The position numbers and the translations under genes were made by a program. DNA of 61,768 nucleotides, counting the filler, from Nemertoderma westbladi (Eukaryota; Animalia; Xenacoelomorpha): NCBI GenBank assembly GCA_032718475.1. It is 3 parts of 3 records of this genome, joined end to end, with 100 filler letters (N's around TTAATTAATTAA, not from the genome) between each part and the next. Parts side by side here need not be neighbours in the genome. Positions count along the whole stretch, not along the records: positions 26,176 to 45,073 come from JAUCBJ010006525.1; 2 more parts are not named here. One strand, 5' to 3'. The notes beneath the pieces are model-generated. The model was not told the DNA's origin. It saw only the letters and a list, made by a program, of their open reading frames with translations, and searched no databases. The number at the start of each line of letters is the position of its first letter. Position 1 is the stretch's first letter. This document shows, one piece after another, positions 19,422 to 58,880 of the stretch.

Positions 19422-19526
19422 AACGAATAATTCAATTATGCCCAGTTACTTGATTATACAAGCCATTACCGTCTTAGTTTAAATTATAAATTTAATTGTT
19501 ATTCAATTTTCTCACTGACATTGTAT

Positions 19527-29082: not shown

Positions 29083-32000
29083 TGCGGGTAGTTAATTTAT
29101 CACGAGTTATAACAACGAACCCTTCAATGGTTTTATTGATACTATAAGTTACTTTATCATAATTCCACGAATTATTGACAGGTAAGGCGGCAGGCCCCTT
29201 TACACCCTCACATCAAATCAACAAAAACTAGTAAATGGAAATGCCAAAACCATAAGTTTTTTTTTAATAGCTAATTAAAATTAAAAAAAAATCACTGTAT
29301 TAAGGTCATTATATTCAGAAATTAATGATATAGGCCTACTTAGAATACGTATACTGTATAATATTTATTATTTAGCAGACAGCGGGTAATATTTTCTGAT
29401 CAAATCCAACAGAGCAGAAAATGGGTTTTCTTTGTGTAGAAGCTTCCAACGAAACTCAGCTAGTTGTTGGGCGAAAGTCAAATCTTAGCTGTAGAAATTC
29501 GAATATTCTAGAAAATTCAATTTCCTTGACATCAAATAAAACATAAACTAACAAAAAATAAAATTTATAAGTTTTTTAAAATTTGTTCTAGAACAAAAAC
29601 TATTTGGTCTAGAACATTTTCTTATTTTTTTTTCAAATGTATCTCATGTTCTAGAACATTTCATAAAAAGAAATAGCAAAAACTAGCTAGTAAAAAAAAA
29701 TTGAGGGGGGGGGGGGTGTACCTATAACACACTAGTACCCGTACTTCTATAACATCATGCGTCATGCGTACCGTATTGAATTTTTATGATAGCTATTATT
29801 TTCTGACTACCGGTAGCTAGCTACTTAGTGTTTTTAGAAAAAAAAAACTAAAAAATATACTTTTATGAAATAAAGTATCTGAACACATTACTCTGCAGTT
29901 TAAATGTTCTAGAACGTTAGCTAGTGTCAAATTTTTGCTCTATAGCTACCCAGTTTTGGTAAAAAATATACCTACGTCAAGTTTAGCAAACTGATAATAG
30001 ATTGTATGATGGAATTATTGGTACCGGTACTAGTTCAGTATGCCTACACCCCAATCCAAATTTTTTCATACTATGTAGGTACCTAGTATTATTTGTGGTA
30101 TTACTGTATAATTATTTTTTAAAATAGTACAGTAGCTAGCAGATATTAGCTAAAATGTTCCAAAAATATATTTTCAGTGTTGCTTACACATTAACATCAA
30201 TAAAATAAAATAAAATTAAATATATTACTATATTACTGTATACTATTGTAGGTAAATTTGCTCCATTTGACAAGTTGCTCCGTGTGAGGGGGTCCTTACG
30301 GTCATTTGTTGTAATATTAATTGTTATTGACAAAAATCAATAAAAAAAGTTGGGAACAGTTCCGTATGCAGTCGCATTTTCTAAAATTTATTATGAAATG
30401 TATTATTAATGTATAATTAATGTATATGGGGATATATTATGACTAATTTAGAACTAACTTACCATCATTGTTGACTTCCTCACAACATTTTTAAAAAATA
30501 TTGTGTTCTAGAACACAATATTAGATACTTTCAGAATATTAGCTACCGCTAATCAAAAGTTAACAGTTCCATCTTGCCTACATTTTTATAACATAAATCA
30601 TTGTTACCAAGGCAATATTGTAGAGTTCTAGAACAAAATATAATTATTATTCACTTTTCTAGAACATATATAAAATAAAAAATATAATATTCTATAACAT
30701 ATAGCTAGTCATTTTTCAAATTTAAAATGGCTAGTAATTCAAAACAACTACAGTTTTATAACATAAATCATTTTGTTACCATTACCATGCAAAAAATAAA
30801 AACTGCTAGAAAATTATCTATATTTTTGGTCAGTAAACAGTTTAAACCTGAAATATAAATGTTTTCACATTTTTTTATAATTACAAAAAATACTAGCTAG
30901 TAAATAAAAACACTATCTACCATAAAAAAGCCTACATTATTCATTTATAGCTATTTTTTTTTAAATACACTAGTCCTACAGTAGTTGTAGTTACCATAAA
31001 AAACACTAGCTACCAGTACCACAAAATTTTATACAATCGAATACCGGTACTCATTTATCTAAAAAAAATTCAAAAAGTACCACAAATATCACACAAAAAT
31101 TATATTAGAAATGGATTAATAATTTGTATTTATATAAAACACTAGCTAGTGTCGTCTAACAGAAAAAGGCAGTACAAGATGATCATAATTACCACAAAAA
31201 TGTATAAATCAGTCGCATAACCATGGCAAATGTCCTTGGTAATGGTGACACATATCGTACTAATGCCCCCACAATCAATTAGCTGATACAATTTGAGATT
31301 TCTTTAGGAACCGGTAGTCCTATTATTTGCAGAAATCAGTCAGTTGAAAAGCCAAATTTCGAAACCAGCTAAAGTTCTAGAATATCTAAACAGTAATAAA
31401 ATCGGTATCATGCTTTGGATGAACAGAAATTAAAATGAAAAATTTAATAAAATCTTCACGAAATGTTTGATTTTTCGATTTACATTAAATTTCCATTGTG
31501 TTTATATGTAATCTCAACCAGCTACCGTAGTAAATTACGGCTGCTTGGCCTATAACTTGGGACGCCTTGATTTTTCCCTCAATGTAACTAGAAAAGTACC
31601 TAACTGCTTTGTGGCCTGTCGTTTAAAATGTGCAGCTAAAACTGCAATAATTCTGGAACAAAACATAACTATTACCATTGAAACATCTACAGTAAAATGG
31701 GTGTGTTGACAGCATGAAGAGACATGGCACATAACACGGTATTGCACTGCGTAGTGTGGAACGGCTCGACACCGCATTGGACAGCCTCGCACTGCGACGT
31801 ATTGTAGTATGTGTAGTAACTGCTCCAACGCTAAACACATTTAAATCGCGACTAAATACGAACTACAACAACTAACCAATAAAATTCACTCTTTCATGGT
31901 GGACTGAATAACAAAAGACCCCCACCCCTCCCCTCATCACTACCCACCCACAATCCCCAAACGCTCGAATTCAACATTGCCTTTTTCATTTGTATCATAT

Positions 32001-36071: not shown

Positions 36072-37922
36072 TTAGAACAAGTTCTTCGGCAGCAAAGCGG
36101 CCACTGTGGGTAGTATTTCGGCGCAGGATTTCCGCCAGTTTATTATCTGTTTAGAGACGCTGCACCAAAGTTCACCGTGGTGTGGGTCTGCGTTGACGCA
36201 ACCCTTAACCACATCGACCAGCTGGTCCGCGCCCCCGAACTGAGTCTCGAAGGCGTAGTAATGGGCCCAGGTGTCGCCGAGGTCGGGGTCTATCTTTATA
36301 GCCCGCTGGAACCACTCCCTCGCCTTCGTGAGTTTCCGTTCGGCCCAGAAGAGTTTCGCGACCGCGAGCAACACGTACGGATCGTGTTCGCACTTTTTGA
36401 GCGCGTCGACGCTCTTGGCCTTGCGCTGCGGGCGCGACTCCAGGAATATCGCCTCGGCCCAGAGCATCCCGGACACCTCCTTGGGGCACTCCTGCATGCC
36501 GCGAGCCATTAGATTGTGCGCGATCTGTTTATTACCCGCACGCAGCTCCACCCGGGCCGCCTCCAGCCACAGCTCCGGAGACTGGGGGTTAGCCATTCGC
36601 GCTTTCTCCAGAACCGCGCGCGCTTTAATCAAATTGCCCGCCTCTAGTCGCGCCCACAGCAACCAGAGGGGCGTCGAGGTGGGGTTCCGTTTGACCCCGT
36701 CGGAGTAGGACCGACTGGCCAGATCCTTGTCGCCTTGCTCCCCGTGCAGTTGGCCCTTCATCATCCAGAGTTTAGCGAAGTCTGCGTACCTCGCGATGCC
36801 CTGAGCGCACAACCGCTGCGCCTCCACCAAGTTCCCCAACATCCACTCCAACTTCACCGACTTCATCATAACTTTCGCCGTCATAGCGTTGTCTCTCGCT
36901 TTCTTTAACAAGCGTCTGGCCCGCTCGTCCTCGTTATTCTCGGACTCTAGTTTAACCGCGGCCAACCAGATCCTCTCGCTGTTCGGGTTGGCTTGGAAGG
37001 CCAACGCGAGGATGGTCCGTGCAGCCTTCACGTCCCCCGCCAACCACTTGGACTTGGCTCCTCGCAGCCACAACTCCTCGGCCTTGGGGCAGTGCGCGAC
37101 CGCGCGTTGCAGCAACGACTCCAACGACTCCCGCGTCCCATGGTTGCTCTCCAACCGCGCCGCTTCCCGCCATACACTCTCCTTCCCTGGGAACACCCCC
37201 AATGCGTGGGCGTACACCGCCCTCGCTGCCCCGTACGCCGCCCGACCGACAGCCGACTCAGCATCCTCCAACCATTGCTCCTCCCTATCCTGTTCCTCCA
37301 CATCCATCCCTATCGTGTGTCTCACTATCGCCTTGCAGGTTATCTCGCTTCCTGCTTTATCGGCATCCTCGGCGTCCTGCAACCATTCCTCCCGGTTAAT
37401 CTCCACCGCGTTGCTCTGGAGGGAAGAGATCGCGCGTTCCACAATCTTATCAACGCGCTCCACGTTCCCCTGGGCTTCCTCCAGTTTAGCAGCGGTGATC
37501 CAAATCATACGATCGGTGGGAACGTTCTCCCGCGCGCGGTTGAGCACTCGTCTCGCGTTGTCGTAGGTCTCGAGTTTAGAGAGCGCCAACCAGAGGTCGA
37601 CGCTCTGGGGGCAGCATTCCACACCCCGGGACAACATAACCCGAGCGTCATCGAGTTCCTCCAACTCCACCGCCGCCTTCCACAGTCGCACCGAGTTGGG
37701 AACCGCCTCCAACGCGCGTCGGAAGACACGCCGTTTACCCTTGGTCGTGGTCTCGAGACGCGACGCGGCTATCCACAGCTTCACGCTGGTCGCGATGTGT
37801 CGCACACCCTGTGCGACCACTGCCTTACCTGTGTCGCTCGGTTGCAACCTGATCGCCTCCAGCCAGATATCCTCGTTATTGGGACACATTTCCGTCCCTT
37901 TCATCACTATATTCCGCGCCAC
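36072..37922 (-). CDS. PRPF6: PRPF6 exon 2 (HAT/TPR repeats, 616 aa)
   Basis: [14 protein letters not shown]...WLEAIRL through [12 protein letters not shown]...DPHHGELW matches PRPF6. Acceptor ctcttgtttcccAG at 37924-37923. Confidence 0.97.
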
Positions 37923-38388
37923 CTGGGAAACAAGAGTTTGTTTAAATAACTATAACGTAGTATTAAATATTATTAATGTTGTCGCACTTAACTAATTATA
38001 AGTTTTAGTTATGGGAACTAAGATAACCTAACTTGGGAAAGTCGATGAAAGGATTTTAATTTAATATTTAAAAAATCAAATCAAATTTTATATAAATGTT
38101 ACTCCTCGGTTGAACATTTCGTAGAGGGATGCCTGTCTAAATACTGTTACAATCCGAGCACAAACTCAATTCAATCCTATAACAATCCCATTATATTCCT
38201 AGACTGACCCATGGCCTATTATAGTAGGTCTAATTACAAATTTAGCGGAATCTCATTACAACTCTAGCCCAACCCCATTACAGTATAACTCTAGCACAAC
38301 CCCATTATCACCTATATAAGCCCCCGCCCCGAACAATAAACATTATCCATCAGAGATCAACGATCACTGAACAGTCTAGTGAATACCA

Positions 38389-38482
38389 GAAGCCTCAGAT
38401 CAAAGTAATGTTGTCCATATTAAATAAAATCATAGTTTGGTTACTCATAAGAGGTGTCAGAAAGACTATCATCATCGGCATC
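38389..38482 (-). ncRNA. SNORD60: Box C/D snoRNA, SNORD60 (U60/snR48)-like, copy C
   Basis: GATGCC-G-ATGATGA (box C) ... TTTCTGACACCTCTT-ATGA (guide plus D') ... CTGA (box D)-GGCTTC; terminal stem with one mismatch. Confidence 0.85.
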
Positions 38483-38583
38483 ATGGTACACCCCCCCCCC
38501 CCCCCACACCGCATTCAACAAAGCTATCACAAATGGAATCCCGCAGCCGAGGTAAGTCTCCAAGTCTCCAGTTTTTTTTTGTT

Positions 38584-39486
38584 ACGGTGAATGGAGGTAT
38601 TAACAAATCGGTGAATGGGGTATTAACAAATCGGTGAATGGGGTATTAACAAATCGGTGAATGGGGTATTAACAAATCGGTGAATGGGGTATTAACAAAT
38701 CGGTGAATGGGGGATTAACAAATCGGTGAATGGGGGATTAAAAATCGGTGAATGGGGGATTAACAAATCGGTGAATGGGGGATTAACAAATCGGTGAATG
38801 GGGGATTAACAAATCTGTGAATGGGGGATTAACAAATCGGTGAATGGGGTATTAACAAATCGGTGAATGGGGTATTAACAAATCGGTGAATGGGGTATTA
38901 ACAAATCGGTGAATGGGGGATTAACAAATCGGTGAATGGGGGATTAACAAATCGGTGAATGGGGGATTAACAAATCGGTGAATGGGGGATTAACAAATCG
39001 GTGAATGGGGGATTAACAAATCTGTGAATGGGGGATTAACAAATCGGTGAATGGGGTATTAACAAATCGGTGAATGGGGTATTAACAAATCGGTGAATGG
39101 GGGATTAACAAATCGGTGAATGGGGGATTAACAAATCGGTGAATGGGGGATTAACAAATCGGTGAATGGGGTATTAACAAATCGGTGAATGGGGGATTAA
39201 CAAATCGGTGAATGGGGGATTAACAAATCGGTGAATGGGGGATTAACAAATCGGTGAATGGGGTATTAACAAATCGGTGAATGGGGGATTAACAAATCGG
39301 TGAATGGGGGATTAACAAATCGGTGAATGGGGGATTAACAAATCGGTGAATGGGGTATTAACAAATCGGTGAATGGGGGATTAACAAATCGGTGAATGGG
39401 GGATTAACAAATCGGTGAATGGGGTATTAACAAATCGGTGAATGGGGGATTAACAAATCGGTGAATGGGGGATTAACAAATCGGTG
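38584..39486. repeat. 22-bp minisatellite, ~41 units (CGGTGAATGGGG[G/T]ATTAACAAAT)
   Basis: Directly visible; two interspersed G/T variants. Confidence 0.97.
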
Positions 39487-39790
39487 ATATGTTGGGAGAG
39501 GGGGGAGGTGTACCCCTGTGCGGAATCTAGATATTTTCCCCGGTGGTGACCTTTAACATGCGAACAAAAAATAATCGAATTTAGAAGATTTTTCATTATT
39601 ACTGTGACGTAATGCTGCAGGGGGGGGGGGGGGGGGGGGGGGGGGGACGTGGGTCTTGCTGTACAGCATTCTTAATATGTAATATATATAATGCAGCTGA
39701 ATTGCAGCAACACCCAATGCGTGGATTATTCCTTCCCAATACACGGCTTTAGTTAACTGGATTAAATACGGGTTAATATATCGATAATAT

Positions 39791-41832
39791 CAGGGTTGCC
39801 GCTCTATTTCAGTTTCAATTTTTCCCTGACATTCCCCTGACTTTTTAAAAAAAATTCCCTGACTGAAGTTTACATTTCTTTTTACATCTTTACATTTCTT
39901 TTTTTATTTCTTCTTCTCAAATAATTATGACTTTATATTTATATATTTAGTGATGTGAGAAAATGGAATGGTGAGCGAAGCAAGACAAATTTTTTCATGT
40001 CCTGTATATATCACATTCAGGTGGGGATGGGCCTACTGTATAGTATATATCACATTCAGGTGGAGATGGGCCTACTGTATAGTATATATCACATTCAGGT
40101 GGGGATGGGCCTACTGTATAGTATATATCACATTCAGGTGGGGATGGGCCTACTGTATAGTATATATCACATTCAGGTGGGGATGGGCCTACTGTATAGC
40201 ATATATCACATTCAGGTGGGGATGGGCCTACTGTATAGTATATATCACATTCAGGTGGGGATGGGCCTACTGTATAGTATATATCACATTCAGGTGGGGA
40301 TGGGCCTACTGTATAGTATATATCACATTCAGGTGGGGATGGGCCTACTGTATAGTATATATCACATTCAGGTGGGGATGGGCCTACTGTATAGTATATA
40401 TCACATTCAGGTGGGGATGGGCCTAATGTATAGTATATATCACATTCAGGTGGGGATGGCCCTACTGTATAGTATATATCACATTCAGGTGGGGATGGGC
40501 CTACTGTATAGTATATATCACATTCAGGTGGGGATGGGCCTACTGTATAGTATATATCACATTCAGGTGGGGATGGGCCTACTGTATAGTATATATCACA
40601 TTCAGGTGGGGATGGGCCTACTGTATAGTATATATCACATTCAGGTGGGGGTGGGCCTACTGTATAGTATATATCACATTCAGGTGGGGATGGGCCTACT
40701 GTATAGTATATATCACATTCAGGTGGGGATGGGCCTACTGTATAGTATATATCACATTCAGGTGGGGATGGGCCTACTGTATAGTAATATATCACATTCA
40801 GGTGGGGATGGGCCTACTGTATAGTATATATCACATTCAGGTGGGGATGGGCCTACTGTATAGTATATATCACATTCAGGTGGGGATGGGCCTACTGTAT
40901 AGTATATATCACATTCAGGTGGGGATGGGCCTACTGTATAGTATATATCACATTCAGGTGGGGATGGGCCTACTGTATAGTATATATCACATTCAGGTGG
41001 GGATGGGCCTACTGTATAGTATATATCACATTCAGGTGGGGATGGGCCTACTGTATAGTATATATCACATTCAGGTGGGGATGGGCCTACTGTATAGTAT
41101 ATATCACATTCAGGTGGGGATGGGCCTACTGTATAGTATATATCACATTCAGGTGGGGATGGGCCTACTGTATAGTATATATCACATTCAGGTGGGGATG
41201 GGCCTACTGTATAGTATATATCACATTCAGGTGGGGATGGGCCTACTGTATAGTATATATCACATTCAGGTGGGGATGGGCCTACTGTATAGTATATATC
41301 ACATTCAGGTGGGGATGGGCCTACTGTATAGTATATATCACATTCAGGTGGGGATGGGCCTACTGTATAGTATATATCACATTCAGGTGGGGGTGGGCCT
41401 ACTGTATAGTATATATCACATTCAGGTGGGGGTGGGCCTACTGTATAGTATATATCACATTCAGGTGGGGATGGGCCTACTGTATAGTATATATCACATT
41501 CAGGTGGGGGTGGGCCTACTGTATAGTATATATCACATTCAGGTGGGGATGGGCCTGCTGTATAGTATATATCACATTCAGGTGGGGATGGGCCTACTGT
41601 ATAGTATATATCACATTCAGGTGGGGATGGGCCTACTGTATAGTATATATCACATTCAGGTGGGGATGGGCCTACTGTATAGTATATATCACATTCAGGT
41701 GGGGATGGGCCTACTGTATAGTATATATCACATTCCCTGACTTTTCCATGATTTCTCAAATTTTTACTAGAATTCCCTGACATTTCAAGAAAAAATGAAA
41801 TTCCAGACTATTCCAGATGAGTGGCAATCCTG
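39791..41832. mobile_element. hAT-like MITE with 14-bp TIRs and a 5-bp TSD, expanded by an internal minisatellite
   Basis: CAGGGTTGCCGCTC ... GAGTGGCAATCCTG; AATAT at 39786-39790 and 41833-41837; subterminal TTCCCTGAC repeats at both ends. Confidence 0.8.
40004..41735. repeat. 39-bp minisatellite, ~44 units
   Basis: TATATATCACATTCAGGTGGGGATGGGCCTACTGTATAG unit; a 1-nt insertion near 40786. Confidence 0.97.
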
Positions 41833-42203
41833 AATATTTAAGTTTGCAGGATGTACCGTACGGTTGAATAAGATAGAAAACAAGCAATACCGTAAGTATA
41901 ATGCACGTGGAATACTTCTCAGTTCTTATAAATCACCTGTCAAATTCTCCATTTTGGGCAAACTATTTTGGTTTTCTAAACAAAATCGAGAATTTCTAAA
42001 ATATTTTGTAACCATTTAGAAACTTTTTTTCACAGTGAACATTATGAAAAAAACCATCGCAAGTCTAGAATTTTGCGCCAACTGTGAAATATATGGGGAG
42101 GCAGGGGGTCACATTTCGGTGTGACGTCGTTTATGAATAGGCCATAACTATACTTTATATAGAGGAGGTGATATTTGGTATTTAATAATTAACACCCCAC
42201 GTA

Positions 42204-42973
42204 CACCATGTCCTGGAATGTAGTGTCGTTATTCTGGAACATGCCCCCCCCCCCAAATTTTTATACAAATCTTAATAAGATTGGATGAAATTTGAAACAG
42301 AGTTAGTTTCATCTCCCTCCTCCTTACTGGGTGAGCCAGAATTTTTATTTTTGCTTTCAATCTTTCTTTAGTTACAAGCGTTTAAAAAAAGTGTCTCCGT
42401 CGATATTGCACCAGTTATCGCACATTCATTAGTCAAACTTATAGTGAATTGTAGATACTAGTGGAAAGCTGTATATGCAAGGATTCCAAATATGTAAAAC
42501 TATTTGAATTTGGTTGGGAAATAGCTGAGATATGGGCATTTGAATGTTGCCTGTATTTACTTGCACTGCTGATGTTCTAGAACATTTTGTTTATCTCATA
42601 AGTAGCTTGGCAACAATGCAATGCCTACATGATGATACTAGTATATCGATATTCATACATAATTCATGCAACATTCAAATGCCCATATCTCAGGTATTTC
42701 CAACCCAAATTTAAATATTTTTCCATATTTGGAATCCTTGCATGTCCAGCTTTCCACTAGTATCTACAAATAACTATAAGGTTGAAGAATGACTGTGCAG
42801 TAACTGGTGCAATATCGACGGGAATACTTTTTTTAAAAGCTTGGAACTAAAGATTGAAAGGAAAAATAAAAATTCTGGCTCACCCACTAAGGAAGGGGGA
42901 TATGAAACTAACTCTGTTTCAAATTTCACCCAATCGTATGTCTTATATTTCATCAGGATTTGTATAAATTTTT

Positions 42974-43004
<31 letters not shown>

Positions 43005-43044
43005 CAGGTACCAGAATAATGAAACTATATTCCAGGACATGGTG
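42204..43044. mobile_element. Tc1/mariner-type foldback MITE with TA target duplication
   Basis: TA|CACCATGTCCTGGAAT ... ATTCCAGGACATGGTG|TA; inverted arms ~350 bp. Confidence 0.88.
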
Positions 43045-43096
43045 TATATCAGGTATCATTACAAACATCTAATACAGTATGACGCATGATTGGCGG

Positions 43097-43179
43097 TGCC
43101 TCAGATGTAAGAAAATGTCAATATTAAAATCAACGTTGATTACTCATAAGAGGTGTCAGAAAGACAATCATCATAGGCA
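43097..43179 (-). ncRNA. SNORD60: Box C/D snoRNA, SNORD60-like, copy B (diverged)
   Basis: TGCC-T-ATGATGA ... TTTCTGACACCTCTT-ATGA ... CTGA-GGCA. Boxes and guide are intact; the interior is diverged. Confidence 0.82.
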
Positions 43180-43696
43180 TAAAGCTAATTACTATAAAGA
43201 CAAATAATGCTAAGCGTGGGCTAATTAAGTAATTAAGGATGTCCGATGTAGTTACCCCCATTAGGAGAGCCAACAAACTTTGTGGGCCGTTTCTCAGTTT
43301 GCCGATAGGGATAACATTTCACACAATGCACTAATTGTGGTTGCGATTTGTCTGTTTTCGGCGACTGTTTATTACATTAGACGGGATGCTGTTTGTTTGG
43401 TTGATGTAATTCATTATTGATTTGCATCAATAAATCCCATTTGCATCATCACTAAAATTATGATTTGTCGGCCTTTATGCGAATCTGATGGTGCAAACTC
43501 ATTGCGGCGGCGACAAAATCCATATCTGTAGGAAAGGTAAAACCTTGAGATTTCCTTTACTCCATGTGTCACAGTACTATACTGCGGGTGGTTGTTTAAC
43601 TGGCCTATTTAGTACCGGTAATATGATTCTTGTTGACATCGACATCAGGTAATTACTGACAAAACGTGCAAAACTTAACCATGTTTTACAATCGAC

Positions 43697-43790
43697 GATG
43701 CCTCAGATCTAAGTAATGTTGTCCATATTAAATAAAATCATCGTTTGGTTACTCATAAGAGGTGTCAGAAAGACTATCATCATCGGCATC
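43697..43790 (-). ncRNA. SNORD60: Box C/D snoRNA, SNORD60-like, copy A
   Basis: Perfect 6-bp stem GATGCC/GGCATC; box C ATGATGA at 43783-43777; guide at 43771-43757 complementary to 28S AAGAGGUGUCAGAAA; D' ATGA; box D CTGA at 43706-43703. Confidence 0.9.
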
Positions 43791-43814
43791 ATGGTAGACC
43801 CCCCCCCCCCCATC

Positions 43815-44141
43815 CCGACTCAACTGTAGTTTCCCAACAATTCCCCGACTTAACTGTAGTTTTCGAACATTTCCTGACTTACCTGTAGTTTCCCGACTCA
43901 CTTGTATTTTCCCAACCACCTCACCCACTGACCTGTAGTTTCCCAACTCACCTGTAGTTTCCCGACCATTTCCCGACTCACCTGTAGTTTCCCAACCACC
44001 TCACCCACTGACCTGTAGTTCCCCAACTCACCTGTAGTTTCCCGACTCACCTGTAGTTTACCGAACACTTCCTGACTCACCTGTAATTTCCCTAACACTT
44101 CCTGACTCACCTGTAGTTCCCCAACTCACCTGTAGTTTCCC
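43815..44141 (-). repeat. Tandem array of the PRPF6 exon 1/intron junction (GGGAAACTACAG|GTGAGT), 13 units
   Basis: Donor G at 44129, 44110, 44080, 44050, 44031, 44012, 43981, 43951, 43932, 43901 and 43882; GT>TT dead copies at 43853 and 43823. Confidence 0.93.
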
Positions 44142-45062
44142 GACCACCTCTTCCAACCTCGCCGAGGCTATCCAGGCCGGAGCGTGACTCGGATTTGTAT
44201 CCCGAACTGACTTCAGTAGCAACCTCGCCTTCTTTACGTCCCCTATATCCCCACCGTAGGCTGGCAACATCGACTGCAGATCAGTGAGGTATCCCTTAGG
44301 GTCCACCACCGTCTGTCCAGACACTGAGTCGGACACCTGGGTGAGTCGCAGGTCCATCAGAGCGTTGCGAGCCTGTCCAACCTTCCGTAGATCGAGACTG
44401 GTGGATCCGTCTGTCGGAGTAGAACCACCGAAAGGCGATGTTAACCCGCCGTACTTCTGTTCCCGGGCGTCAACCGACGTACCGGTAGCCGTAGACGACA
44501 TGAGAAGCAGACTGTCCGGAACCGGAGTCAGTTGGTCCGCCTTCGGGTTGCGCTGCTTTTTGTTCCGGTAATCGCCCACGTCCGGAATGGCCGACCAATC
44601 ATCGGAAGACACCTCGGAGAGTTTCCTCTTGAGGTCGGCGAACTGTGTCTGTATTTTTGGCCGCTCCTGACGATACTGTAGCATTTTATCCCTGAAGTAT
44701 TTCTCTCGGTACTCTTTGCGTCTCTCGTCCATTCGTTTATCAACCTCCTCGTAGATCTCATCCGCTTCTTTATCATCCTGCTCGTACGGAGTGTCTTTGA
44801 AAAGGTTCTCTCCGTATCCCGCGAACTCATCGTAGTTCATGTCGTTGAGGTCTTCCTCGGGCTCCGGTTCCGGTCGTTTAGCGTTCGGTCCGTACTTTTT
44901 CTCCTGCTCGTTTGTCGGATCTCCGGACTCTCTCGCCGGACCGATGTCCGACCGGGTTGTGAACCCAGTGGCACCGCGGCCCACCCCGGCCACGTAGCCC
45001 AAGGGAGCGGGCATGTTTATAAAGCCCTTCTTTTGTTTGTTTACCATCAACGAGACATTCAT
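44130..45062 (-). CDS. PRPF6: PRPF6 exon 1 (311 aa, PRP1_N domain)
   Basis: [79 protein letters not shown]. Confidence 0.97.
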
Positions 45063-45073
45063 GGTGGTTGATG

Positions 45074-45173
45074 NNNNNNNNNNNNNNNNNNNNNNNNNNN
45101 NNNNNNNNNNNNNNNNNTTAATTAATTAANNNNNNNNNNNNNNNNNNNNNNNNNNNNNNNNNNNNNNNNNNNN
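45074..45173. other. Artificial contig spacer
   Basis: N-run with central TTAATTAATTAA. Confidence 0.97.
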
Positions 45174-47259
45174 ATGGTCGCGTTTCCACTGTTCTCCGTT
45201 GTTCGGTAGGCTCACAAGTCTTCCTCGAAGTCGTAGATTGCGATGTAAATTGGTTGAACGGTCGCGTCTCTGTTCTCCGTTGTTCGGTAGGCTCACAAGT
45301 CTTCCTCGAAGTCGTAGATTGCGATGTAAACTGGTTGAATGGTCGCGTATCCACTGTTCTCCGTTGTTCGGTAGGCTCACAAGTCTTCCTCGAAGTCGTA
45401 GATTGCGATGTAAACTGAACGAACGGTGGTCGGACGACCGCGTTTGAATCCAAAGGCCTTGTAGGCCGAAATGTCATTGGGTAATCGTAGTGCGTAACGG
45501 GTTTAGGTGTCAAAGGTGGACTCACCTGTTTTGTCGTCAGTAGTGCAGGTCCGACTAATAAACTACTACGATCTGTAATCGGTGGGTTACTTACCTTGAC
45601 TTTCGGAATAGGCGACGACGTTGCTCTTGGCGGTGTAAACTTGTCCGGAATAACAAACCTGTGTTCCGTCACACCATGGATAGGAGAGATATCGATGCTA
45701 CCAGCAATCGAAACAGGTTCCTTAGTCGTGACCGGTGCAAACATATGAGTTACCTGTGGGAATCGTTGACACACGTCTTTTACTAATTGTCGTTCCCGTC
45801 CGGGTGCTCCTACACTTCCTTCCTTCTTCCGTTCCTGAATTTGGCGATGTCTTACCTCTAACTGGTCCAAATCATGTCCGTCACGGGATCTCATCGATCG
45901 ATCGCGGGCTAGAAGATCCAGATTTTCCTTGGTTTCGGCTAATTCTCTCGCCCTTTTCTCAAGTTCGAAACGAAGTTTAACTTCCTTTTCTCGTTGTTCC
46001 GTTTGTTGTTGTTGCGCCTCGAACTCTGCTTGTCGTATCGCTTGTTGGGCTTTTATTTGCCGTGTCTTCATCTCGACTCTGGCTTCCGAAACTAATCTTT
46101 GTCGCTCTAACTCTGCCGCAGCCGTTTGTCGCTCTAACTCGGCCGCTGCCGTTTGTCGCTCTAACTCGGCCGCTGCCGCTGCCGCTGCCGCTGCCGTTTG
46201 TCGCTCTAACTCGGCTGTTGCCGTTCGTTGCGCTAACTCGGCCGCTGCCGCTTGTTGGGCAATGTCCAACTCTAACCTTTCCATTTCGGCCGCTTCGAGT
46301 TCGGCTTGTTCCTGCAGATGAGAGATTCTCGCTACATTCGCAACACGTATTTTCTCTTCCTCTACTGCTGTTTGTATCATTAGAAGTTGAGCTTGTTCTT
46401 CCATCTCGTGTTGCTGTCTGTAGAACTGCTGCTGTTGTCGAGCAACTTCTGACGTGACTATACTTCCCTCGCAGATTTCGCTACGAATACTTACCAATGA
46501 TTGATTTAGTATTCCCGGTGCCGATTCGATTTGTGCGAATGAAGTTTCCCTCGTGTATTCCGGCACGGTTTCCAAATCGCCGACGTCTTCGCCGCACATG
46601 CGTAAGTGGTCCGTCAGGTGTTTTAATTGTCCATCCAGTCGGTACAGTTCCTGTTCTTCCTCGGGCTGTAATAATTCGTCTGAAACTGACTCACCTAACA
46701 ACTGGTCCGCTTGTTCCTGTTGTATCTGTCTAATCGTCGACTTAAACTGAATCAGTTTCTCTCTAGTGATCATTAGTTTCTCGAGGATTCTAAGTTGAGT
46801 ATCCATGTCCTGTCTCTGTCTAGCTAGATCTTGTAGGCCAACTAGATTATCTACGGACTTATATACTTTACTCTGTACTCTAACCTGGAGGGTGTAGAAC
46901 TCGAATCGAGACATCGGAGCGGTCAACCCGTCTAATATGCGTTGGCCTTCTCCAATGCTCCTGGTTATATGCGCCATGTATCCACCGACGCTTCTAACCA
47001 CACTTTCTGTGCTTCCTGCTGAACTTACCAATTCCGTTTCCCTATATCTAGGTTGCGGAACAGTTAGAAAGTCCTCGGTCCTGCCGTCGCCTCGTACTAC
47101 GGCATCCGGTACTCCCGTTGGATGTACTGGTGACGCGCACGGTGTAGGTTCGGTAGGCTCGCGAGTCTTCCCCTGTGGTTCTTCCGCTGCTGACTTATCC
47201 GCGTCACATGAGTCATAGTCGGTTTGTGTATTCTTCGTATAGTCTTGTTTGTCACTCAT
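45174..47259 (-). CDS. Long coiled-coil/low-complexity ORF (~695 aa, cut by the contig end), probably the N-terminus of an LTR retrotransposon gag
   Basis: Uninterrupted ORF, E/Q/A/R-rich coiled coil, ELERQTAAA repeats, three 27-28-aa repeats at the end. An LTR-like promoter lies ~2.2 kb upstream. No diagnostic domain is reached. Confidence 0.55.
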
Positions 47260-49388
47260 TTCGGTAGTTGTAAGTCAAGTGAAGTGAGTGTCAAAGTATC
47301 GAGTTTACCGTATTTGTATCTAAACGGTACTAATTACAGTCTTATAAAATTAGCCTACCGGCCGATTTTATAGCAGATGGATAAAATTAGCCTAAACGGC
47401 CAATTTTACAGCAAATAAATGTCACGGAATAAGTATATAATAAAATTAGCCTAGCGGCCAATTTTATAACAAATAAATCGGATAACGATATGCGTTATCA
47501 AAAGGTAAATTAAATACAATAATACGGACTAATTCAGCAATGAACAAAGAAATCGTACGGAATGCATAAATACTTGAGACAGTGGAACCCACAATAATTT
47601 TAACTAATACGGTAATGCCTAACTTATTTATGCAACTTTTCAAACTCACCCACTCCAATAATTCTCCAGAAAAACAGATTCCCAGATACAAACCGGACGT
47701 GAACCTTTCCGTTTTTAACGTTGCGGACGAAACGCGATTTTCCCAACCAAAGTTGTTGAGTTATCTATCTCCCAAACTTGCTAAACACGGTCTTGCTCCC
47801 GTTACAGTCTAGAAATGAGTTCTGAATCCTGAAAAACAAAAGAGTTAGGTTTTACTTTACGAAAAATTTTGTACCGGTACAATATGGTATTTAAACCCTT
47901 TTAAACACCGGTATTCAATTCCAAAAATATTTTACACGCGGTTCAAATCAAATTTTATTTCAAAAAATTAGCACTTAGCTAATCAATATAAATTTTTACC
48001 TCAAAATACAAAATTTTCAAATAACTTTAGTCCTACCGAACCGTAGTTCAGTAAAACATATTCCTACTAAATTGGAGAGATACGCCTATTCCTACTATCG
48101 GAAGAAACGGTAACAATACCTGCAATATCCTACTGTAAAGTTTGTAAATCAAATCATAAATCCGACCTTCTCACCAAAACAGTAAACCCTAAGTAAGCGA
48201 ATATATTGCAGTATCGATCTCTTTTAACCGGTGAGGCAGAACAGTCTACGAGCAGACAAACTTCGATAAAACAAATCCCGCGCAGCGAATCCTAAAATCA
48301 GGCTGACTCACTGACGGACTAAGAGGCTCGTATACTTTGCCGCGGTGTGATTTATATGGTTGGGCAAAGGGACGCTAGCTAGGTACAGAGGCAGATATTT
48401 GGAGATGTCTAACTAGCGAGCAAAGTGCAGTAAGGACGAAAGTTAATTTTATATTTTTCGAGGTGTAAATAATTTCTAACGCGCGTGTGTCAATTCTGAA
48501 CGGTCAAAGCAGTTTTGCTCCTTCACATATATAATTACTGGGTACGGTGTGCATTTTACGAATATTCTAATTTTATAACTTGTAGGTCCAATACTCACGA
48601 ATGATAAGGTTCCTTCCCCTCTTGCGTATTTCCAGGACTCAAATTCAGGCATAAGGTTAATACTACGCCCAGAATTCGGCAATTTTAGGTACCAGGTCCC
48701 TGATACTAAGAAGAGATGTGTTAGTTTACTACTGTAGGCGTACGGGTACTAATAGCTATCCTGGCTCCTATCTAGAATTTTAGTCACCCAGGTAGTCCGG
48801 GTAACTTCCTATTAGGGCGTTGGCGGGGACACGGTAGATGTTAGTATATCCCTGATAGCCTCAATTTATTTGCGCCTAGCGTAAACTGCCCTACCGCCTG
48901 AACGGTACAATCCCAATTCAGGTGAAAACACAGCAACCCCCTAGCCTACAAGTTCTGATGTAATAGACACGGTCGTACTGCAAATAGTCGCACACACACC
49001 TGTACTTAGCAAGAGTTAAGCGTACAGTTTGCTGCACCCTAACCAATGTGTATGCCTTGTACCGGTGTGCCTACGTCCTATCTGCGTACTAGTATCTGCT
49101 CTCTCTCACCCTCCCCCCGTAGGAATATGAAGGTCTACTGCGGTTTTCCCTGAATCAAGACAGTACAGTCCCTATGATGTAATTTTGGGCTTACAGCGTG
49201 TCACTACGTCTACCTTTGATCTTTTGGTCTTATACTTAGGTAGCAAGGATCGAACGCTGTCTAACCTTTCAGGCGATGGGCGAATAACTTTAAATGGTAT
49301 TGCGGGTCGTCTCTCGTCTACATTCCCGTGATGTTCCCGTTCATTGCTGCGGCCCGATCTCTAGCTGGCCATCCTGTCCCTGAGTTTG

Positions 49389-49867: not shown

Positions 49868-49995
49868 ACTTGACCGATAGATGCATAATAGATAGAACCA
49901 ATACTAATGAGAACTCAAAGCAATCTTTACAAAGTTAATTCGAATAAAATAAAATTTTGAAAATCCACGGCATTTAGGGAATATAATTCTATAAA

Positions 49996-52441
49996 GCTAT
50001 AAAAGCTATAAAAGCTATAAAAGCTATAAAAGCTATAAAAGCTATAAAAGCTATAAGAGCTATAAAAGCTATAAAAGCTATAAAAGCTATAAAAGCTATA
50101 AAAGCTATAAAAGCTATAAAAGCTATAAAAGCTATAAAAGCTATAAAAGCTATAAAAGCTATAAAAGCTATAAAAGCTATAAAAGCTATAAAAGCTATAA
50201 AAGCTATAAAAGCTATAAAAGCTATAAAAGCTATAAAAGCTATAAAAGCTATAAAAGCTATAAAAGCTATAAAAGCTATAAAAGCTATAAAAGCTATAAA
50301 AGCTATAAAAGCTATAAAAGCTATAAAAGCTATAAAAGCTATAAAAGCTATAAAAGCTATAAAAGCTATAAAAGCTATAAAAGCTATAAAAGCTATAAAA
50401 GCTATAAAAGCTATAAAAGCTATAAAAGCTATAAAAGCTATAAAAGCTATAAAAGCTATAAAAGCTATAAAAGCTATAAAAGCTATAAAAGCTATAAAAG
50501 CTATAAAAGCTATAAAAGCTATAAAAGCTATAAAAGCTATAAAAGCTATAAAAGCTATAAAAGCTATAAAAGCTATAAAAGCTATAAAAGCTATAAAAGC
50601 TATAAAAGCTATAAAAGCTATAAAAGCTATAAAAGCTATAAAAGCTATAAAAGCTATAAAAGCTATAAAAGCTATAAAAGCTATAAAAGCTATAAAAGCT
50701 ATAAAAGCTATAAAAGCTATAAAAGCTATAAAAGCTATAAAAGCTATAAAAGCTATAAAAGCTATAAAAGCTATAAAAGCTATAAAAGCTATAAAAGCTA
50801 TAAAAGCTATAAAAGCTATAAAAGCTATAAAAGCTATAAAAGCTATAAAAGCTATAAAAGCTATAAAAGCTATAAAAGCTATAAAAGCTATAAAAGCTAT
50901 AAAAGCTATAAAAGCTATAAAAGCTATAAAAGCTATAAAAGCTATAAAAGCTATAAAAGCTATAAAAGCTATAAAAGCTATAAAAGCTATAAAAGCTATA
51001 AAAGCTATAAAAGCTATAAAAGCTATAAAAGCTATAAAAGCTATAAAAGCTATAAAAGCTATAAAGGCTATAAAAGCTATAAAGGCTATAAAAGCTATAA
51101 AAGCTATAAAAGCTATAAAAGCTATAAAAGCTATAAAAGCTATAAAAGCTATAAAAGCTACAAAAGCTATAAAGGCTATAAAAGCTATAAAAGCTATAAA
51201 AGCTATAAAAGCTATAAAAGCTATAAAAGCTATAAAAGCTATAAAAGCTATAAAAGCTATAAAAGCTATAAAAGCTATAAAAGCTATAAAAGCTATAAAA
51301 GCTATAAAAGCTATAAAAGCTATAAAAGCTATAAAAGCTATAAAAGCTATAAAAGCTATAAAAGCTATAAAAGCTATAAAAGCTATAAAAGCTATAAAAG
51401 CTATAAAAGCTATAAAAGCTATAAAAGCTATAAAAGCTATAAAAGCTATAAAAGCTATAAAAGCTATAAAAGCTATAAAAGCTATAAAAGCTATAAAAGC
51501 TATAAAAGCTATAAAAGCTATAAAAGCTATAAAAGCTATAAAAGCTATAAAAGCTATAAAAGCTATAAAAGCTATAAAAGCTATAAAAGCTATAAAAGCT
51601 ATAAAAGCTATAAAAGCTATAAAAGCTATAAAAGCTATAAAAGCTATAAAAGCTATAAAAGCTATAAAAGCTATAAAAGCTATAAAAGCTATAAAAGCTA
51701 TAAAAGCTATAAAAGCTATAAAAGCTATAAAAGCTATAAAAGCTATAAAAGCTATAAAAGCTATAAAAGCTATAAAAGCTATAAAAGCTATAAAAGCTAT
51801 AAAAGCTATAAAAGCTATAAAAGCTATAAAAGCTATAAAAGCTATAAAAGCTATAAAAGCTATAAAAGCTATAAAAGCTATAAAAGCTATAAAAGCTATA
51901 AAAGCTATAAAAGCTATAAAAGCTATAAAAGCTATAAAAGCTATAAAAGCTATAAAAGCTATAAAAGCTATAAAAGCTATAAAAGCTATAAAAGCTATAA
52001 AAGCTATAAAAGCTATAAAAGCTATAAAAGCTATAAAAGCTATAAAAGCTATAAAAGCTATAAAAGCTATAAAAGCTATAAAAGCTATAAAAGCTATAAA
52101 AGCTATAAAAGCTATAAAAGCTATAAAAGCTATAAAAGCTATAAAAGCTATAAAAGCTATAAAAGCTATAAAAGCTATAAAAGCTATAAAAGCTATAAAA
52201 GCTATAAAAGCTATAAAAGCTATAAAAGCTATAAAAGCTATAAAAGCTATAAAAGCTATAAAAGCTATAAAAGCTATAAAAGCTATAAAAGCTATAAAAG
52301 CTATAAAAGCTATAAAAGCTATAAAAGCTATAAAAGCTATAAAAGCTATAAAAGCTATAAAAGCTATAAAAGCTATAAAAGCTATAAAAGCTATAAAAGT
52401 AAAGCTATAAAAGTAAACCTATAAAAGCAAAGCTATAAAAG
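49996..52441. repeat. (GCTATAAAA)n satellite, ~270 units
   Basis: Directly visible; only a handful of variant units. Confidence 0.98.
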
Positions 52442-55209: not shown

Positions 55210-55385
55210 ATGGATGTGCTAGCATTATATGATGGATGTGCTAGCATTATATGATGGATGTGCTAGCATTATATGATGGATGTGCTAGCATTATATGATG
55301 GATGTGCTAGCATTATATGAGGGATGTGCTAGCATTATATGAGGGATGTGCTAGCATTATATGATGGATGTGCTAGCATTATATG
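55210..55385. repeat. 22-bp tandem repeat, 8 units, inside the Academ-like ORF
   Basis: ATGGATGTGCTAGCATTATATG x8. Confidence 0.92.
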
Positions 55386-57935
55386 TATCCAAGATGCATT
55401 ATCTGATGTATTATCTTCGGTTGAAACGGTCGATGTTTCCATAGACAACACTGTCGCATATATAACCAAAGAAATTGTCAAGGAAATGAATGGCATAATG
55501 AAAGAACGATCTATAGTTGAATACAACTTATCAGAATTTACAAGAGACCGAGCAATAGAGTCCACTAGCAAAACTCTACTAAGTCTAATTTCCAAATTAG
55601 TTTCTATAAATTAGTTTCTGGAGAAGAAACCAAACAATCTGCATCCTTGGCGCAGTCTATACAGGCACTAATAAGTGGAGTGTATAACCAGACAACACTT
55701 GGGATGGCTATAAAGCTTCATTATCTATTTGGAAGCCGGGAACTTATAAAATTTCTTGCATTCACGAGGATATGTGGCCAGATATGATGAAGTGCTACGG
55801 TTTAGAAAGTCTGCTGCAAAATTTACAGAAGAGCGTGGTTTTTCATCTGGCGATATTTTGGATGATTTTGACAAAAACCATCAACAAATTAGAGCGTGGA
55901 TGGATAACTTTGACCTAAATGTATTTACCCCAAATGGTCTTCGTGACTCCCACTCAACAGCTATGGAGTTACTGCAGACGTCCACAGGGAGCTCTGGAGG
56001 AGTTCCAAATAACATATATTTTCCGCGCATTTCGAAGTCAGATTTGAATTCCATTAAATTATGCGGAATGGGTGCTGTAAATTTACAACTTTACTTAGGT
56101 GAGAAAAACCCTCTCCCACCAAATATCATATACATACAGCCAGCTTTATGTATAGGCAGCTATTCATATATCTGCAGATATGGCTATCTATAAGATAATT
56201 ATGCACATAAAGTGGTCTGAATCAAAACGATGGGAGTTTTTAGTTGCTACACTAGGGGGTATGCATATTCTTCAAAATTTTATTGCAAGTATAGGAAATT
56301 TGATGTCAGGTAGCGGACTGGAGGAAATACTAAATATGTCAAATTTCAAGGGTGTCATTAGCATGTTGAATGGCAAAGCTTGGCCTAAAGCAGTACGAGA
56401 TTTGCGATTGGTTGTGAGTGGTCTACTTATAGATATAATTAACCCATGTAGTTCACTGGTAACTGTTAGAAAATCAATAGATAACATGCGATTGTCTCGA
56501 ACTGGAAAATTGTGGATTGATTGCATATTTATTCCAATTTAAATCATTCATGTTTACAGCAGAGCTAAGAATACGGTGAATTGGAATCTACATATGTGTG
56601 CACTTAAGATGATGTTACCATACTTATTTTCTTCTGGTCACTGGAATTATGCAAGGTACATTACTTGGCATATTGAAGAACAGGAACGAGGTCTACCAAG
56701 TGACACTCTCAATGCGTTTATAGAAGGAGATTTTGTTTGTGACATCAGGGAGGAATGTGCAACTCTGTTTGGAAGGACCAGTTTGGGGAGCAGACGTACA
56801 TAAGAAAGGGGAAGTCACTAGGTGGATTGAAGGGTAAGACTCTGTCCCAATAACAGTCGACCATTTGGGTGTTATCCCACTACATATGCAATATGTTTGC
56901 CTTGGGTGTGGATAACATGTTTGATTCTGGGTTAGTGGAGGATGATGAGGATCGTGAAGATGACTTAAGATGACAAAGAGGAGGGCTCTAAGCGGCGGCA
57001 TATTGATGCCGGTGATAGAATCAGTATACTTCGAACATTAAAAAAGTGCAGGGATCCATTTGGCTTTAATGATACTAATGAGTTGATCAATATTGTGAAT
57101 GGTCGTATAGCTCCACCAGAAGTCAATGTCGATAATGCCGTAAAGTTGGGGTTGGAGTCAGTAAGGGCATTCAAAACAACTCTCCCAAATGGTTTCTACC
57201 AGAGAACAACACGCTCAGTTTTAACTATGGATTTGAAACCTGCAAGTGGCAAACATGGTTGCAAGACCTATGATATGGGGAGATTATACGCAAGACTTCT
57301 GATTGTCTCACAGAAACGCCATATTGATTTGTTCGAATTGTTTAGCTATGAACTATGCCCATTACCTCCATCACTATTCAAAGAGTATGGTGAATTATGT
57401 TCCGGAAAGAAAACTGAGTTGGTTTCTCTGGCAGTATATCCCCCCTGTTGATTTGGAACTAGTTGATGGAAATAGCTTCGCTATACCATATGAATTGGAC
57501 CAACAAGTTATCTGTAGCCGCTTTTTGTGATGCCTACTGCAGCAAATATAAAGATACAGTAGCTGAACACCATCATGAAACGTATAAAATATTTGATCGT
57601 TACTTTCCAGGTAGCATTAAATCTTTAGAAAGGGAGAAGCGTAATAAATCCAACAGATATCAACAATCTGAACTATCACTAGAAACAATTCTACCTTCCA
57701 GAGACAATATTATGAAGTCTGTGAACAATAAACAAAATCTTATTCAATTTATGTGTAATTATACAACACATAAATCATTACACCTTGTTGGGGACTCTAA
57801 TAATATATTCGAACATGAAGAAGCTGATGTTACTATTATTAGTTACATGTTAAAGTTATCTGATAATGACAACATCAGACATATACAAATAACAACAGAT
57901 GATACAAACATTTTCGTACTAGTAGTATTCTTCTG

Positions 57936-58880
57936 GGGCAGGCGACAAGAAGCTCCATTAGTGCTAACAGCGCTGTTAACTAAAATTATGAGCGACACGA
58001 TACCTCCGTTAAATTAAAGGCGGCTTTAACTAACGGAAGCCAGCGTCTCAAATCTCCGTTACACTAACGGAGGACTCTCTGTTAATGTCTTTTACACCAT
58101 CCACCAGTAGGCACCTTTAAGGTTCCGTTAAGAAATGGTTTGTATTCTACTCTACATAACTAAACGCATTCTGAAAAACTATATTTATAGCTTTCATAGT
58201 ATAGATCTTGAATTCACGTTCTGTGTGAGATTCAATCATCTCCGCATTATCCAAGTCCTATTTGACGGTAGTTCTAATTAAACATTGCGGTGCATTACAG
58301 CTGATGTGGGTGGATCACGGGATGTGCAATCACGGTTATAAACACAGTTCAACTTAGTTTTCCGTCATAAGTTAGATAGACCCTTTCAGCAATCTTCGAG
58401 ATACCTAATTTTACGAACGATTCATCAATGACCAGGTGGAAGTCGTTGGTCATTGAGAGATAGAGTAGAATTCTACCCAATACTCGGGCACTCCATATGC
58501 TCTAATAGCTGTTTTGATGATGTTACATTCCCGATCTTAACATTAATTGTTAGCTCTATTGCCTAAACATGAAACTGTAGCGGTAGTATGTACTGCTTTG
58601 GTCTATAATATTTTTTAGATGTGGAAGGGTTTCAATTTGAAATGGCACTCCAACAATAATATTATCGAGTTGCCTAAGCAGCGAAAACAACACTCACCTG
58701 TACGTAATTTTATGATCATTTGGAAAGTATCACTTTTCGTACTAATGGAGCCTTAACGTAGAACTCACTAACAGAGGACTAAATACTCGTTCGTATCGCC
58801 CATTATGAGTTCTCCGTTAAGTGCACTTCCGTTAAACCTCCGTTAACTTTAAAATTAACGGAGTTTCGTGTCGCCCACCC
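57936..58880. mobile_element. PIF/Harbinger-type MITE (945 bp) with a CTG TSD, nested in the Academ-like ORF
   Basis: CTG|GGGCAGGCGACAAGAAGCTCCATTA ... TAACGGAGTTTCGTGTCGCCCACCC|CTG. Removal restores VVFFW-LYQPTF...LSGCD. Subterminal CTCCGTTAA motifs. Confidence 0.85.

What the first reader, a model, noticed from the sequence alone, without database searches (positions are those of the whole stretch)
43815..44141. Thirteen tandem copies of a 5' splice site, all downstream copies non-productive
The unit spans the exon/intron boundary (GKLQ codons plus GTGAGT) with mixed 19- and ~30-nt spacing. Beyond the true donor there are six CAG|GTGAGT, two CAG|GTCAGT, one CAA|GTGAGT, one perfect CAG|GTAAGT (43882) and two GT>TT dead copies at the distal end. 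Offsets 19 and 49 shift the frame. Offsets of 79 or more retain the in-frame TAA at 44060-44058, and offsets of 148 or more place it over 55 nt upstream of the junction, the classic NMD geometry. The spliceosome must pick the most upstream of eleven GT sites, most of them strong U1 matches, in an essential gene. The donor cores look better preserved than the spacers. A conceptual parallel is the tandem 5'ss enhancer (USSE) that autoregulates U11-48K/65K.
Basis: partly seen in the sequence, partly recalled or inferred. Interest (0 to 1): 0.85.

Follow-up and report, generated by a model that had tools for sequence, protein, structure and literature searches.

The report
Splice-donor minisatellite in PRPF6 intron
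The end of the first exon of an animal's PRPF6 splicing-factor gene, splice signal included, is repeated 13 times in a row, but the one spliced sequence found joins the exons at the first signal, so this is likely an ordinary, tolerated repeat of a kind already known from human and lancelet genes.

Summary
In detail: 13 copies of the PRPF6 exon-1/intron-1 junction (minus strand, first intron bases 44129 to 43823), 11 with GT; only the first gives the full 927-aa protein. Public contigs from two studies carry the units unchanged, though they do not fix the copy number. One run that behaves as a transcriptome holds a single 3,051-nt contig joining the exons at the first donor; 60 of 60 readable homologues run through that point without extra residues. 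The regulatory reading is not supported: donor cores are no better kept than flanks (7/108 vs 15/120, p=0.18; 7/108 vs 7/108 without one CpG), the five nearest rival donors lack NMD geometry, and there is no U12-type site as in USSE. The class is published: human F7 intron-7 VNTR, CBS, 6-16, LMNB2, PDGF (PMC1557585) and amphioxus 'mirages' (PMC3087553), with use of the most upstream site shown for F7. The scan found this before on other DNA: 14 unchecked notes describe far larger junction arrays in mostly unrelated genes of this genome, and one a PRPF6 array in another genome. Rare use of downstream donors is untested.

The parts
44130..45062 (-). PRPF6 coding exon 1 (311 codons, ATG at 45062, ends G-K-L-Q)
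   Evidence: PF06424 PRP1_N, E 4e-52; named PRPF6 homologues; covered by the X3 contig with 0 differences
44124..44132 (-). Authentic 5' splice site CAG|GTGAGT, first intron base 44129, phase 0
   Evidence: Only donor giving 927 aa; X3 contig leaves exon 1 here and continues in exon 2 (loose ends); homologues continuous at this point, 60 of 60 readable
43812..44144 (-). Junction minisatellite: 13 donor copies, units of 19 and 29-31 nt, each carrying 9-21 nt of the exon end; 10 downstream GT copies and 2 TT copies; 15 G-runs
   Evidence: contigs of X1, X2, X4 match it without substitutions where laid
43889..44046 (-). 80-nt higher-order duplication inside the array (two 78-nt blocks, 96% alike); explains why GTCAGT occurs twice
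   Evidence: TRF period 80; family D16
44058..44060 (-). In-frame TAA in the retained sequence, made by one G-to-T difference in the flank of the copy at 44050
44028..44030 (-). Second in-frame stop, the TGA within GTGAG of the copy at 44031 (built into the unit)
   Evidence: Translation of the retained sequence
37923..44129 (-). Intron of 6,207 nt; about 3,050 nt of it are tandem repeats (this array, a 39-mer x44, a 23-mer x39 and smaller ones)
   Evidence: DNA-like runs X2 and X4 have contigs running from exon 2 into the intron
36072..37922 (-). PRPF6 coding exon 2 (last coding exon; starts V-A-R-N, HAT/TPR repeats), acceptor TTTCCCAG at 37930-37923
   Evidence: X3 contig covers 36085-37925 with 11 differences, 9 of the 10 listed being silent third-position changes
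43697..43811 (.). 115-nt block abutting the distal end of the array, repeated (97%) at 38389-38503 near the other end of the intron
   Evidence: Family D17

Best explanation
This is a minisatellite made of 13 tandem copies of the PRPF6 exon-1 end plus its splice donor; the one spliced contig found uses the first donor, and the array is likely a neutral by-product of slippage that the gene tolerates. Shown: the anatomy, the match of each unit to the exon end, an internal 80-nt re-duplication, the spliced junction at the first donor. Inferred origin: a 7-nt match (exon -15..-9 equals +5..+11 of the last copy) lies 19 nt apart and would seed a 19-nt slippage duplication; longer units took 17-21 nt of exon or an internal 11-nt repeat; unequal exchange then added the 80-nt block. 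Inferred function: none; the spliceosome likely commits to the most upstream donor, as shown by mutagenesis for the F7 intron-7 VNTR, so the downstream copies drift as intron sequence, and arrays that disturbed this essential gene would have been purged.
For: Spliced X3 contig (3,051 nt, depth 170.5) joins 44130 to 37922; the loose letters on each side are the other exon's end. No X3 cover on the array or on 43452-44081 and 37968-38450 (tried only: contigs drop rare forms). Homologues have no insert at this point: 60 of 80 loci had a readable motif, 58 flagged continuous and the other 2 are continuous on inspection. Core vs flank change 7/108 vs 15/120 (p=0.18), 7/108 vs 7/108 without the CpG site. 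Two distal copies have lost GT. No stable RNA fold: z=+1.95, 98 of 100 shuffles fold as well or better. Same intron holds two unrelated, much larger minisatellites. Coding sequence looks constrained: 9 of 10 listed X3 differences and 4 of 4 X2 differences in exon 2 are silent. Published class with the same outcome: PMC1557585, PMC3087553.
Against: Only one spliced contig from one run, whose kind is a guess ('DNA?') and which I read as RNA from its exon-only cover; assembled contigs hide rare isoforms, so downstream use was not measured. In F7, pseudo-sites mutated to CAG/gtgagt, the very sequence of six copies here, did take 70-90% of splicing from a weaker authentic site (PMC1557585); here the authentic site is equally strong, a case that paper did not build. 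In CBS and 6-16 the nearest one or two pseudo-sites are used (same paper, introduction). The four nearest copies keep an exact core and core changes rise with distance (Spearman 0.79, p=0.002), though this rests on about 4 independent changes, one of them towards consensus, and copies are not independent. No close relative was available to test conservation.
Confidence: 0.8

Rival explanations
1. Same origin, but leaky: the donors at +19 and +49 (and perhaps the CAG|GTAAGT at +247) are used at an appreciable, unregulated rate, wasting part of the PRPF6 transcripts as frameshifted forms of 332-342 aa.
For: Six downstream copies equal the true donor and one matches the U1 consensus better, 9 of 9. 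CBS and 6-16 arrays leak to the nearest sites (PMC1557585, introduction). One unchecked note reports use of an internal copy in a GALNS array of this genome (e1-10614089).
Against: The X3 contig is unbroken across the junction at depth 170 and no second loose end is listed at the acceptor; this shows the dominant form only.
Confidence: 0.11
2. The array is a feedback device: when spliceosome assembly is fast or PRPF6 is plentiful, downstream donors would win and send the mRNA to NMD or to a truncated protein.
For: The host is a core tri-snRNP factor (recalled); all 12 alternatives are non-productive; splicing-factor autoregulation by unproductive splicing is common (search listing); one unchecked note reports an independent donor array after another PRPF6 exon in another genome (e1-7275068).
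Against: Non-productivity follows from unit lengths and the built-in TGA; the five nearest rival donors lack NMD geometry; no core-over-flank conservation; 14 unchecked notes place such arrays in mostly unrelated genes of this genome.
Confidence: 0.04
3. The copies are never cut but have been co-opted as a U1 landing pad or G-run enhancer that would strengthen the true donor or protect the 6-kb intron from premature polyadenylation.
For: Eleven GT sites, ten with 8-9 of 9 consensus matches, and 15 G-runs, unstructured; six AWTAAA hexamers lie on the sense strand of the intron.
Against: Hexamer counts in the window are at chance level (237 vs 228 +/- 14); in F7, adding or deleting monomers or mutating G-triplets changed nothing (PMC1557585); the G-runs mostly derive from the exon's own Gly-Lys codons.
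Confidence: 0.03
4. The array, or most of its copy number, is an assembly artefact.
For: No public contig bridges the whole array; joins at 44017 and 44115 overlap by only 1-30 nt; X1 may be the window's own source sample; X2 and X4 show no cover at 43830-43892.
Against: Units differ from one another by many fixed changes; X1 contigs tile all 13 copies without substitutions, and a sample of another study holds 43911-44144 (9 of 13 copies in X4, 5 in X2) without substitutions.
Confidence: 0.02

Closest known systems
Human F7 intron-7 37-bp VNTR (Borensztajn et al. 2006, PMC1557585; read: abstract, introduction, parts 3 and 4 of 6 with results and discussion)
   Same: First monomer spans the exon-intron boundary; identical donors follow in the intron; the most upstream is the one seen used.
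   Different: F7 has 5-9 regular 37-bp units with a moderate donor; here 13 mixed 19/29-31-nt units with near-consensus donors, in an invertebrate, after a 930-nt first coding exon, before a 6.2-kb intron. Scanning was tested by mutagenesis in F7, not here.
Human CBS intron 13, 6-16 (IFI6) intron 2, LMNB2 and PDGF intron 4 minisatellites (as cited in the introduction of PMC1557585; original papers not read)
   Same: Junction-spanning arrays of 10-25 donor copies, the same size class as this one.
   Different: CBS and 6-16 also use the two nearest pseudo-sites; no such use was seen here, but only one assembled contig could be examined.
Amphioxus 'mirage' minisatellites (Adh3, globins BflGb6 and BflGb9; PMC3087553, passages read)
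   Same: Invertebrate tandem duplications of exon-intron boundaries, units 10-160 bp, many with intact splice signals, reported not to disturb splicing.
   Different: Length variation between haplotypes is reported there; not shown here. Different gene and lineage.
USSE of U11-48K / U11/U12-65K (PMC5473595, passages read)
   Same: Tandem 5' splice-site sequences in a spliceosome gene that are not themselves used.
   Different: USSE is a highly conserved pair of U12-type sites bound by U11 that activates an upstream acceptor; this array is 13 U2-type copies of the gene's own donor, with no U12-type site and no sign of selection.
Latent 5' splice sites and suppression of splicing (PMC1524910, PMC3510495; search listing and start of abstracts only)
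   Same: Intronic donors lying behind an in-frame stop and normally silent; fits the copies at offsets of 79 or more.
   Different: Does not cover the copies at +19 and +49, which have no stop upstream of them.

Membership tests
Junction-spanning minisatellite (F7 IVS7 / 'mirage' type) | First monomer spans an authentic exon-intron boundary | tested here: met
   Unit = exon -13..-1 (up to -21) plus intron +1..+6; boundary fixed by the spliced contig and homologues
Junction-spanning minisatellite (F7 IVS7 / 'mirage' type) | Head-to-tail copies reiterate the splice signal inside the intron | tested here: met
   12 downstream copies, 10 with GT; TRF
Junction-spanning minisatellite (F7 IVS7 / 'mirage' type) | Authentic, most upstream site is the dominant one used | tested here: met
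   One contig of one run, depth 170.5; exclusivity not measured
Junction-spanning minisatellite (F7 IVS7 / 'mirage' type) | Copy number varies between alleles (VNTR) | tested here: inconclusive
   Two studies agree over 43911-44144; contigs cannot count copies; 179 laid records were not shown
Junction-spanning minisatellite (F7 IVS7 / 'mirage' type) | Pseudo-sites are functional when the upstream site is destroyed (scanning) | not testable with these tools
   Needs a minigene
USSE (U11-48K / 65K) | Tandem U12-type 5' splice sites | tested here: not met
   No RTATCC in the array; no RTATCCTT in the intron
USSE (U11-48K / 65K) | Activates an upstream alternative 3' splice site | tested here: inconclusive
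   The array follows the first coding exon; the X3 contig shows no alternative acceptor, but the 5' UTR lies in an assembly gap
USSE (U11-48K / 65K) | High conservation across distant species | tested here: inconclusive
   0 of 60 readable PRPF6 loci have an intron or donor-like site there, but they are distant, and many are transcripts or intron-poor; no close relative was available
Autoregulatory AS-NMD in splicing factors | Unproductive isoform is made and responds to the factor's level or to NMD block | not testable with these tools
   No raw RNA reads listed
Autoregulatory AS-NMD in splicing factors | Regulatory sequence under purifying selection | tested here: not met
   Within-array test only: core vs flank not different; few changes, so low power

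The most novel reading that the evidence does not exclude
The array is a spliceosome-load sensor: PRPF6 has turned copies of its own donor into a ladder of decoys, so that donor choice slides downstream into non-productive forms when U1 or tri-snRNP supply changes, a major-spliceosome counterpart of USSE that arose from a mutational process common in this genome and, perhaps independently, in PRPF6 of another animal.
Probability: 0.04. Interest if true: 0.75.

Novelty: new member of a known kind. Interest (0 to 1): 0.17.

Why it matters
As a single locus it matters little: it is a small example of a published repeat class, and by the scan's own unchecked notes this genome carries arrays of the same kind that are 5 to 160 times larger. 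Its modest value is as a test object. It is short enough to clone whole, its copies can be told apart by sequence, six equal the true donor and one is a better U1 match, so a minigene or deep RNA reads would test whether 'first donor wins' holds in an invertebrate when all rivals are near-consensus, a case the F7 study did not build. Its mixed 19/30/31-nt units and 80-nt block may also record an early stage of the process that made the giant junction satellites.

Tried and rejected
No whole genome is held, so a second PRPF6 copy and the genome-wide rate of such arrays could not be checked directly. No RNA holder was listed; X3 is taken as RNA only from its pattern, and its lack of cover on the array shows no absence of minor forms. 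X2 and X4 have no cover at 43830-43892, next to a G run: a hole proves nothing. The array contig of X2 has depth 9.8 against 25.9 in exon 1, but X1 and X4 show no such drop, so I do not read it as a second allele. The 'goes back 590' joint is a mapping effect of the 52-nt repeat D18 at the edge of the stretch. RNA structure hiding the downstream donors: rejected. Intron born by tandem duplication of a CAG|GTG proto-splice site: both intron ends read CAG|GTG but nothing beyond these six letters is shared, so no support. Other junction arrays inside this window: none found by the AGGTRAGT scan; the other long ORFs are single-exon or transposon-like, so the window gives no base rate. Literature: 'PRPF6 + autoregulation + poison exon + nonsense-mediated decay' listed 100 papers with 3 of 4 terms; of the 15 shown, 2 mention PRPF6 and neither title nor abstract start concerns PRPF6 autoregulation; none was opened. 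'acoel + genome + minisatellite + intron' gave one unrelated paper. The ABCA7 VNTR papers were seen as listings only. No supplements were read. Lineage was not determined: best hits were unnamed proteins at 66-68%; 'acoel' comes from an unchecked note.

Full report
Observation. On the minus strand the coding exon 45062-44130 ends in G-K-L-Q and is followed by an array of copies of its own end. Eight AGGTRAGT sites lie within 330 nt, against at most 2 in 200 shuffles. TRF reports periods 19, 30, 50, 80 and 99.

Gene. Exon 1 carries PRP1_N (PF06424) and the ORF at 37949-36072 carries HAT/TPR repeats; named hits are PRPF6 at about 60-66% identity. With the first donor and the acceptor at 37923 the intron is 6,207 nt and the protein 927 aa; every other donor ends translation at 332, 342 or 334 aa. 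In 80 PRPF6 loci from metagenome contigs the motif before the junction was readable in 60; 58 were flagged continuous and the other two are continuous on inspection, so homologues have no extra residues here, and none of the 60 has an intron or donor-like site at this point. These loci are distant and biased to transcripts and intron-poor genes, so this fixes the boundary but does not test conservation of the array.

Is the array real? Five of 8 listed runs hold the stretch, from three studies, all as contigs and all labelled 'DNA?'; four were laid. X1 tiles the region with contigs at 43200-43937, 43911-44017, 44017-44138 and 44115-45070 with no substitution in the array; X1 may be the window's own source. 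One sample of another study holds 43911-44020 and 44011-44138 (X4; 9 of 13 copies) and 44017-44144 (X2; 5 copies) unchanged. The contigs break where exact 36- and 33-nt repeats lie and overlap by 1-30 nt, so unit content is confirmed but the copy number is not.

Which donor is used? X3 covers both exons and not the unique intron parts that were laid, so it behaves as a transcriptome (inference). It holds one 3,051-nt contig at depth 170.5: on the exon-2 side it stops at 37925 with loose letters equal to the end of exon 1 upstream of the first donor, and on the exon-1 side it stops at 44127 with loose letters from the start of exon 2; the 3-nt overshoots come from CAG|GTG standing at both intron ends. 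No other loose end is listed at the acceptor. So the locus is likely transcribed and spliced at the most upstream donor. Nine of 10 listed X3 differences in exon 2, and 4 of 4 in X2, are silent, as expected for a working gene. Contigs drop rare forms, so minor use of downstream donors is not excluded.

Is there selection on the extra donors? Against the true donor, the 12 downstream copies differ at 7 of 108 core positions (-3..+6) and 15 of 120 flank positions (-13..-4), p=0.18; without the CpG site at -13 the counts are 7/108 and 7/108; as distinct alleles, 4 over 9 core and 8 over 10 flank positions. The test is weak and copies are not independent. That all alternatives are non-productive needs no selection: 8 of 12 offsets are not multiples of 3, and the four that are lie behind the TAA at 44060-44058 and behind a TGA inherent in GTGAG at 44030-44028. 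For +19 and +49 the stop falls 44 nt into the last coding exon, and for +79, +98, +117 it is 7-45 nt from the junction, so the five nearest rivals miss the 50-55-nt rule (rule recalled, mammalian); only the five farthest GT sites meet it. The region is less structured than its shuffles and has no U12-type site.

Mechanism. Each copy carries 9-21 nt of exon end. The tail of the last copy (+5..+11) equals exon positions -15..-9 over 7 nt; if that tail preserves the old intron start, this microhomology 19 nt apart would seed the first slippage (inference; it could also be a truncated copy). Longer units and the 80-nt block would follow by further slippage or unequal exchange. The same intron holds unrelated 39-mer x44 and 23-mer x39 arrays, so tandem expansion is common at this locus. 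Splicing likely commits to the first donor reached.

Known systems. My search found PMC1557585: the F7 intron-7 VNTR has the same anatomy, only the most upstream site is used, and 50 constructs showed a 5'-to-3' preference; it cites CBS, 6-16, LMNB2 and PDGF arrays of 10-25 copies, of which CBS and 6-16 also use the two nearest pseudo-sites. One result there cuts against a clean transfer: pseudo-sites changed to CAG/gtgagt took 70-90% of splicing from the weaker authentic F7 site. Here authentic and pseudo-sites are equal, which that paper did not model at this strength. USSE differs in site type, number, conservation and mode of action (PMC5473595).

Earlier notes of this scan (unchecked, leads only). 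Searches showed 14 distinct notes on junction arrays in this genome, 13 donor and 1 acceptor, of about 60 to 2,100 copies, in GALNS, dynein, a nuclear receptor, HBS1L, tensin, lysyl-tRNA synthetase, CstF-77, a glutamate receptor, a ZIP transporter, WDR86-like, KIDINS220, RBM25, a mucin-like gene and PRP8; three are RNA-processing genes. Both look-ups were steered by my search words, so they give no rate. One search showed a 22-copy donor array after another PRPF6 exon in another genome. I could not check these. If they hold, this array is a small instance of a genome-wide habit.

Verdict. Real, correctly described, a new member of a known kind; most likely neutral and tolerated (0.8). Interest 0.17. 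The open quantity is the share of reads at downstream donors.

Noticed in passing
window 43697-43811 and 38389-38503: A 115-nt block (97% alike) stands as a direct repeat 5,308 nt apart, one copy abutting the distal end of the donor array; most of the intron lies between the two, as if a 5.3-kb insertion or duplication had enlarged a short intron. A 52-nt part recurs at 43136-43187.
   Followed up: partly
window 42202-43046: Nested inverted repeats (arms of 53, 91 and 240 nt, 81-92% complementary) in the PRPF6 intron, MITE- or foldback-like.
   Followed up: no
window 43283-43428: High-copy dispersed repeat: summed contig depth in the hundreds to thousands in all four runs, with many loose ends.
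   Followed up: no
window 45074-45173 and 45118-47274: An assembly gap padded with N-TTAATTAATTAA-N lies 12 nt upstream of the PRPF6 ATG; public contigs run 82-645 nt past 45070 and could fill it. Beyond it is a 718-codon minus-strand ORF with no Pfam match, coiled-coil-like AAAELERQ repeats and 81-nt tandem repeats at the gap. The same pad occurs at 26076-26175.
   Followed up: partly
window 37923 and 44129: Both ends of the intron read CAG|GTG; PRPF6 has only this one coding intron here, and none of 60 readable distant loci has an intron at this point.
   Followed up: partly
window 27352-29091 and 18402-19445 (minus strand): Single-ORF genes for a signal-peptide-peptidase-like protease with PA domain and a rhodopsin-family GPCR; apparently intronless.
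   Followed up: no
window 49989-52399, 40004-41735, 38585-39487: Large, nearly perfect tandem arrays: 9-mer x268, 39-mer x44, 23-mer x39; the last two lie in the PRPF6 intron and contain no donor copy.
   Followed up: no
window 21943-26020 and 55333-59525: Broken ORFs that look by eye like a BEL/Pao-type LTR retrotransposon and a DNA-transposon-like gene ending in a Cys-rich motif (labels recalled, not searched).
   Followed up: no
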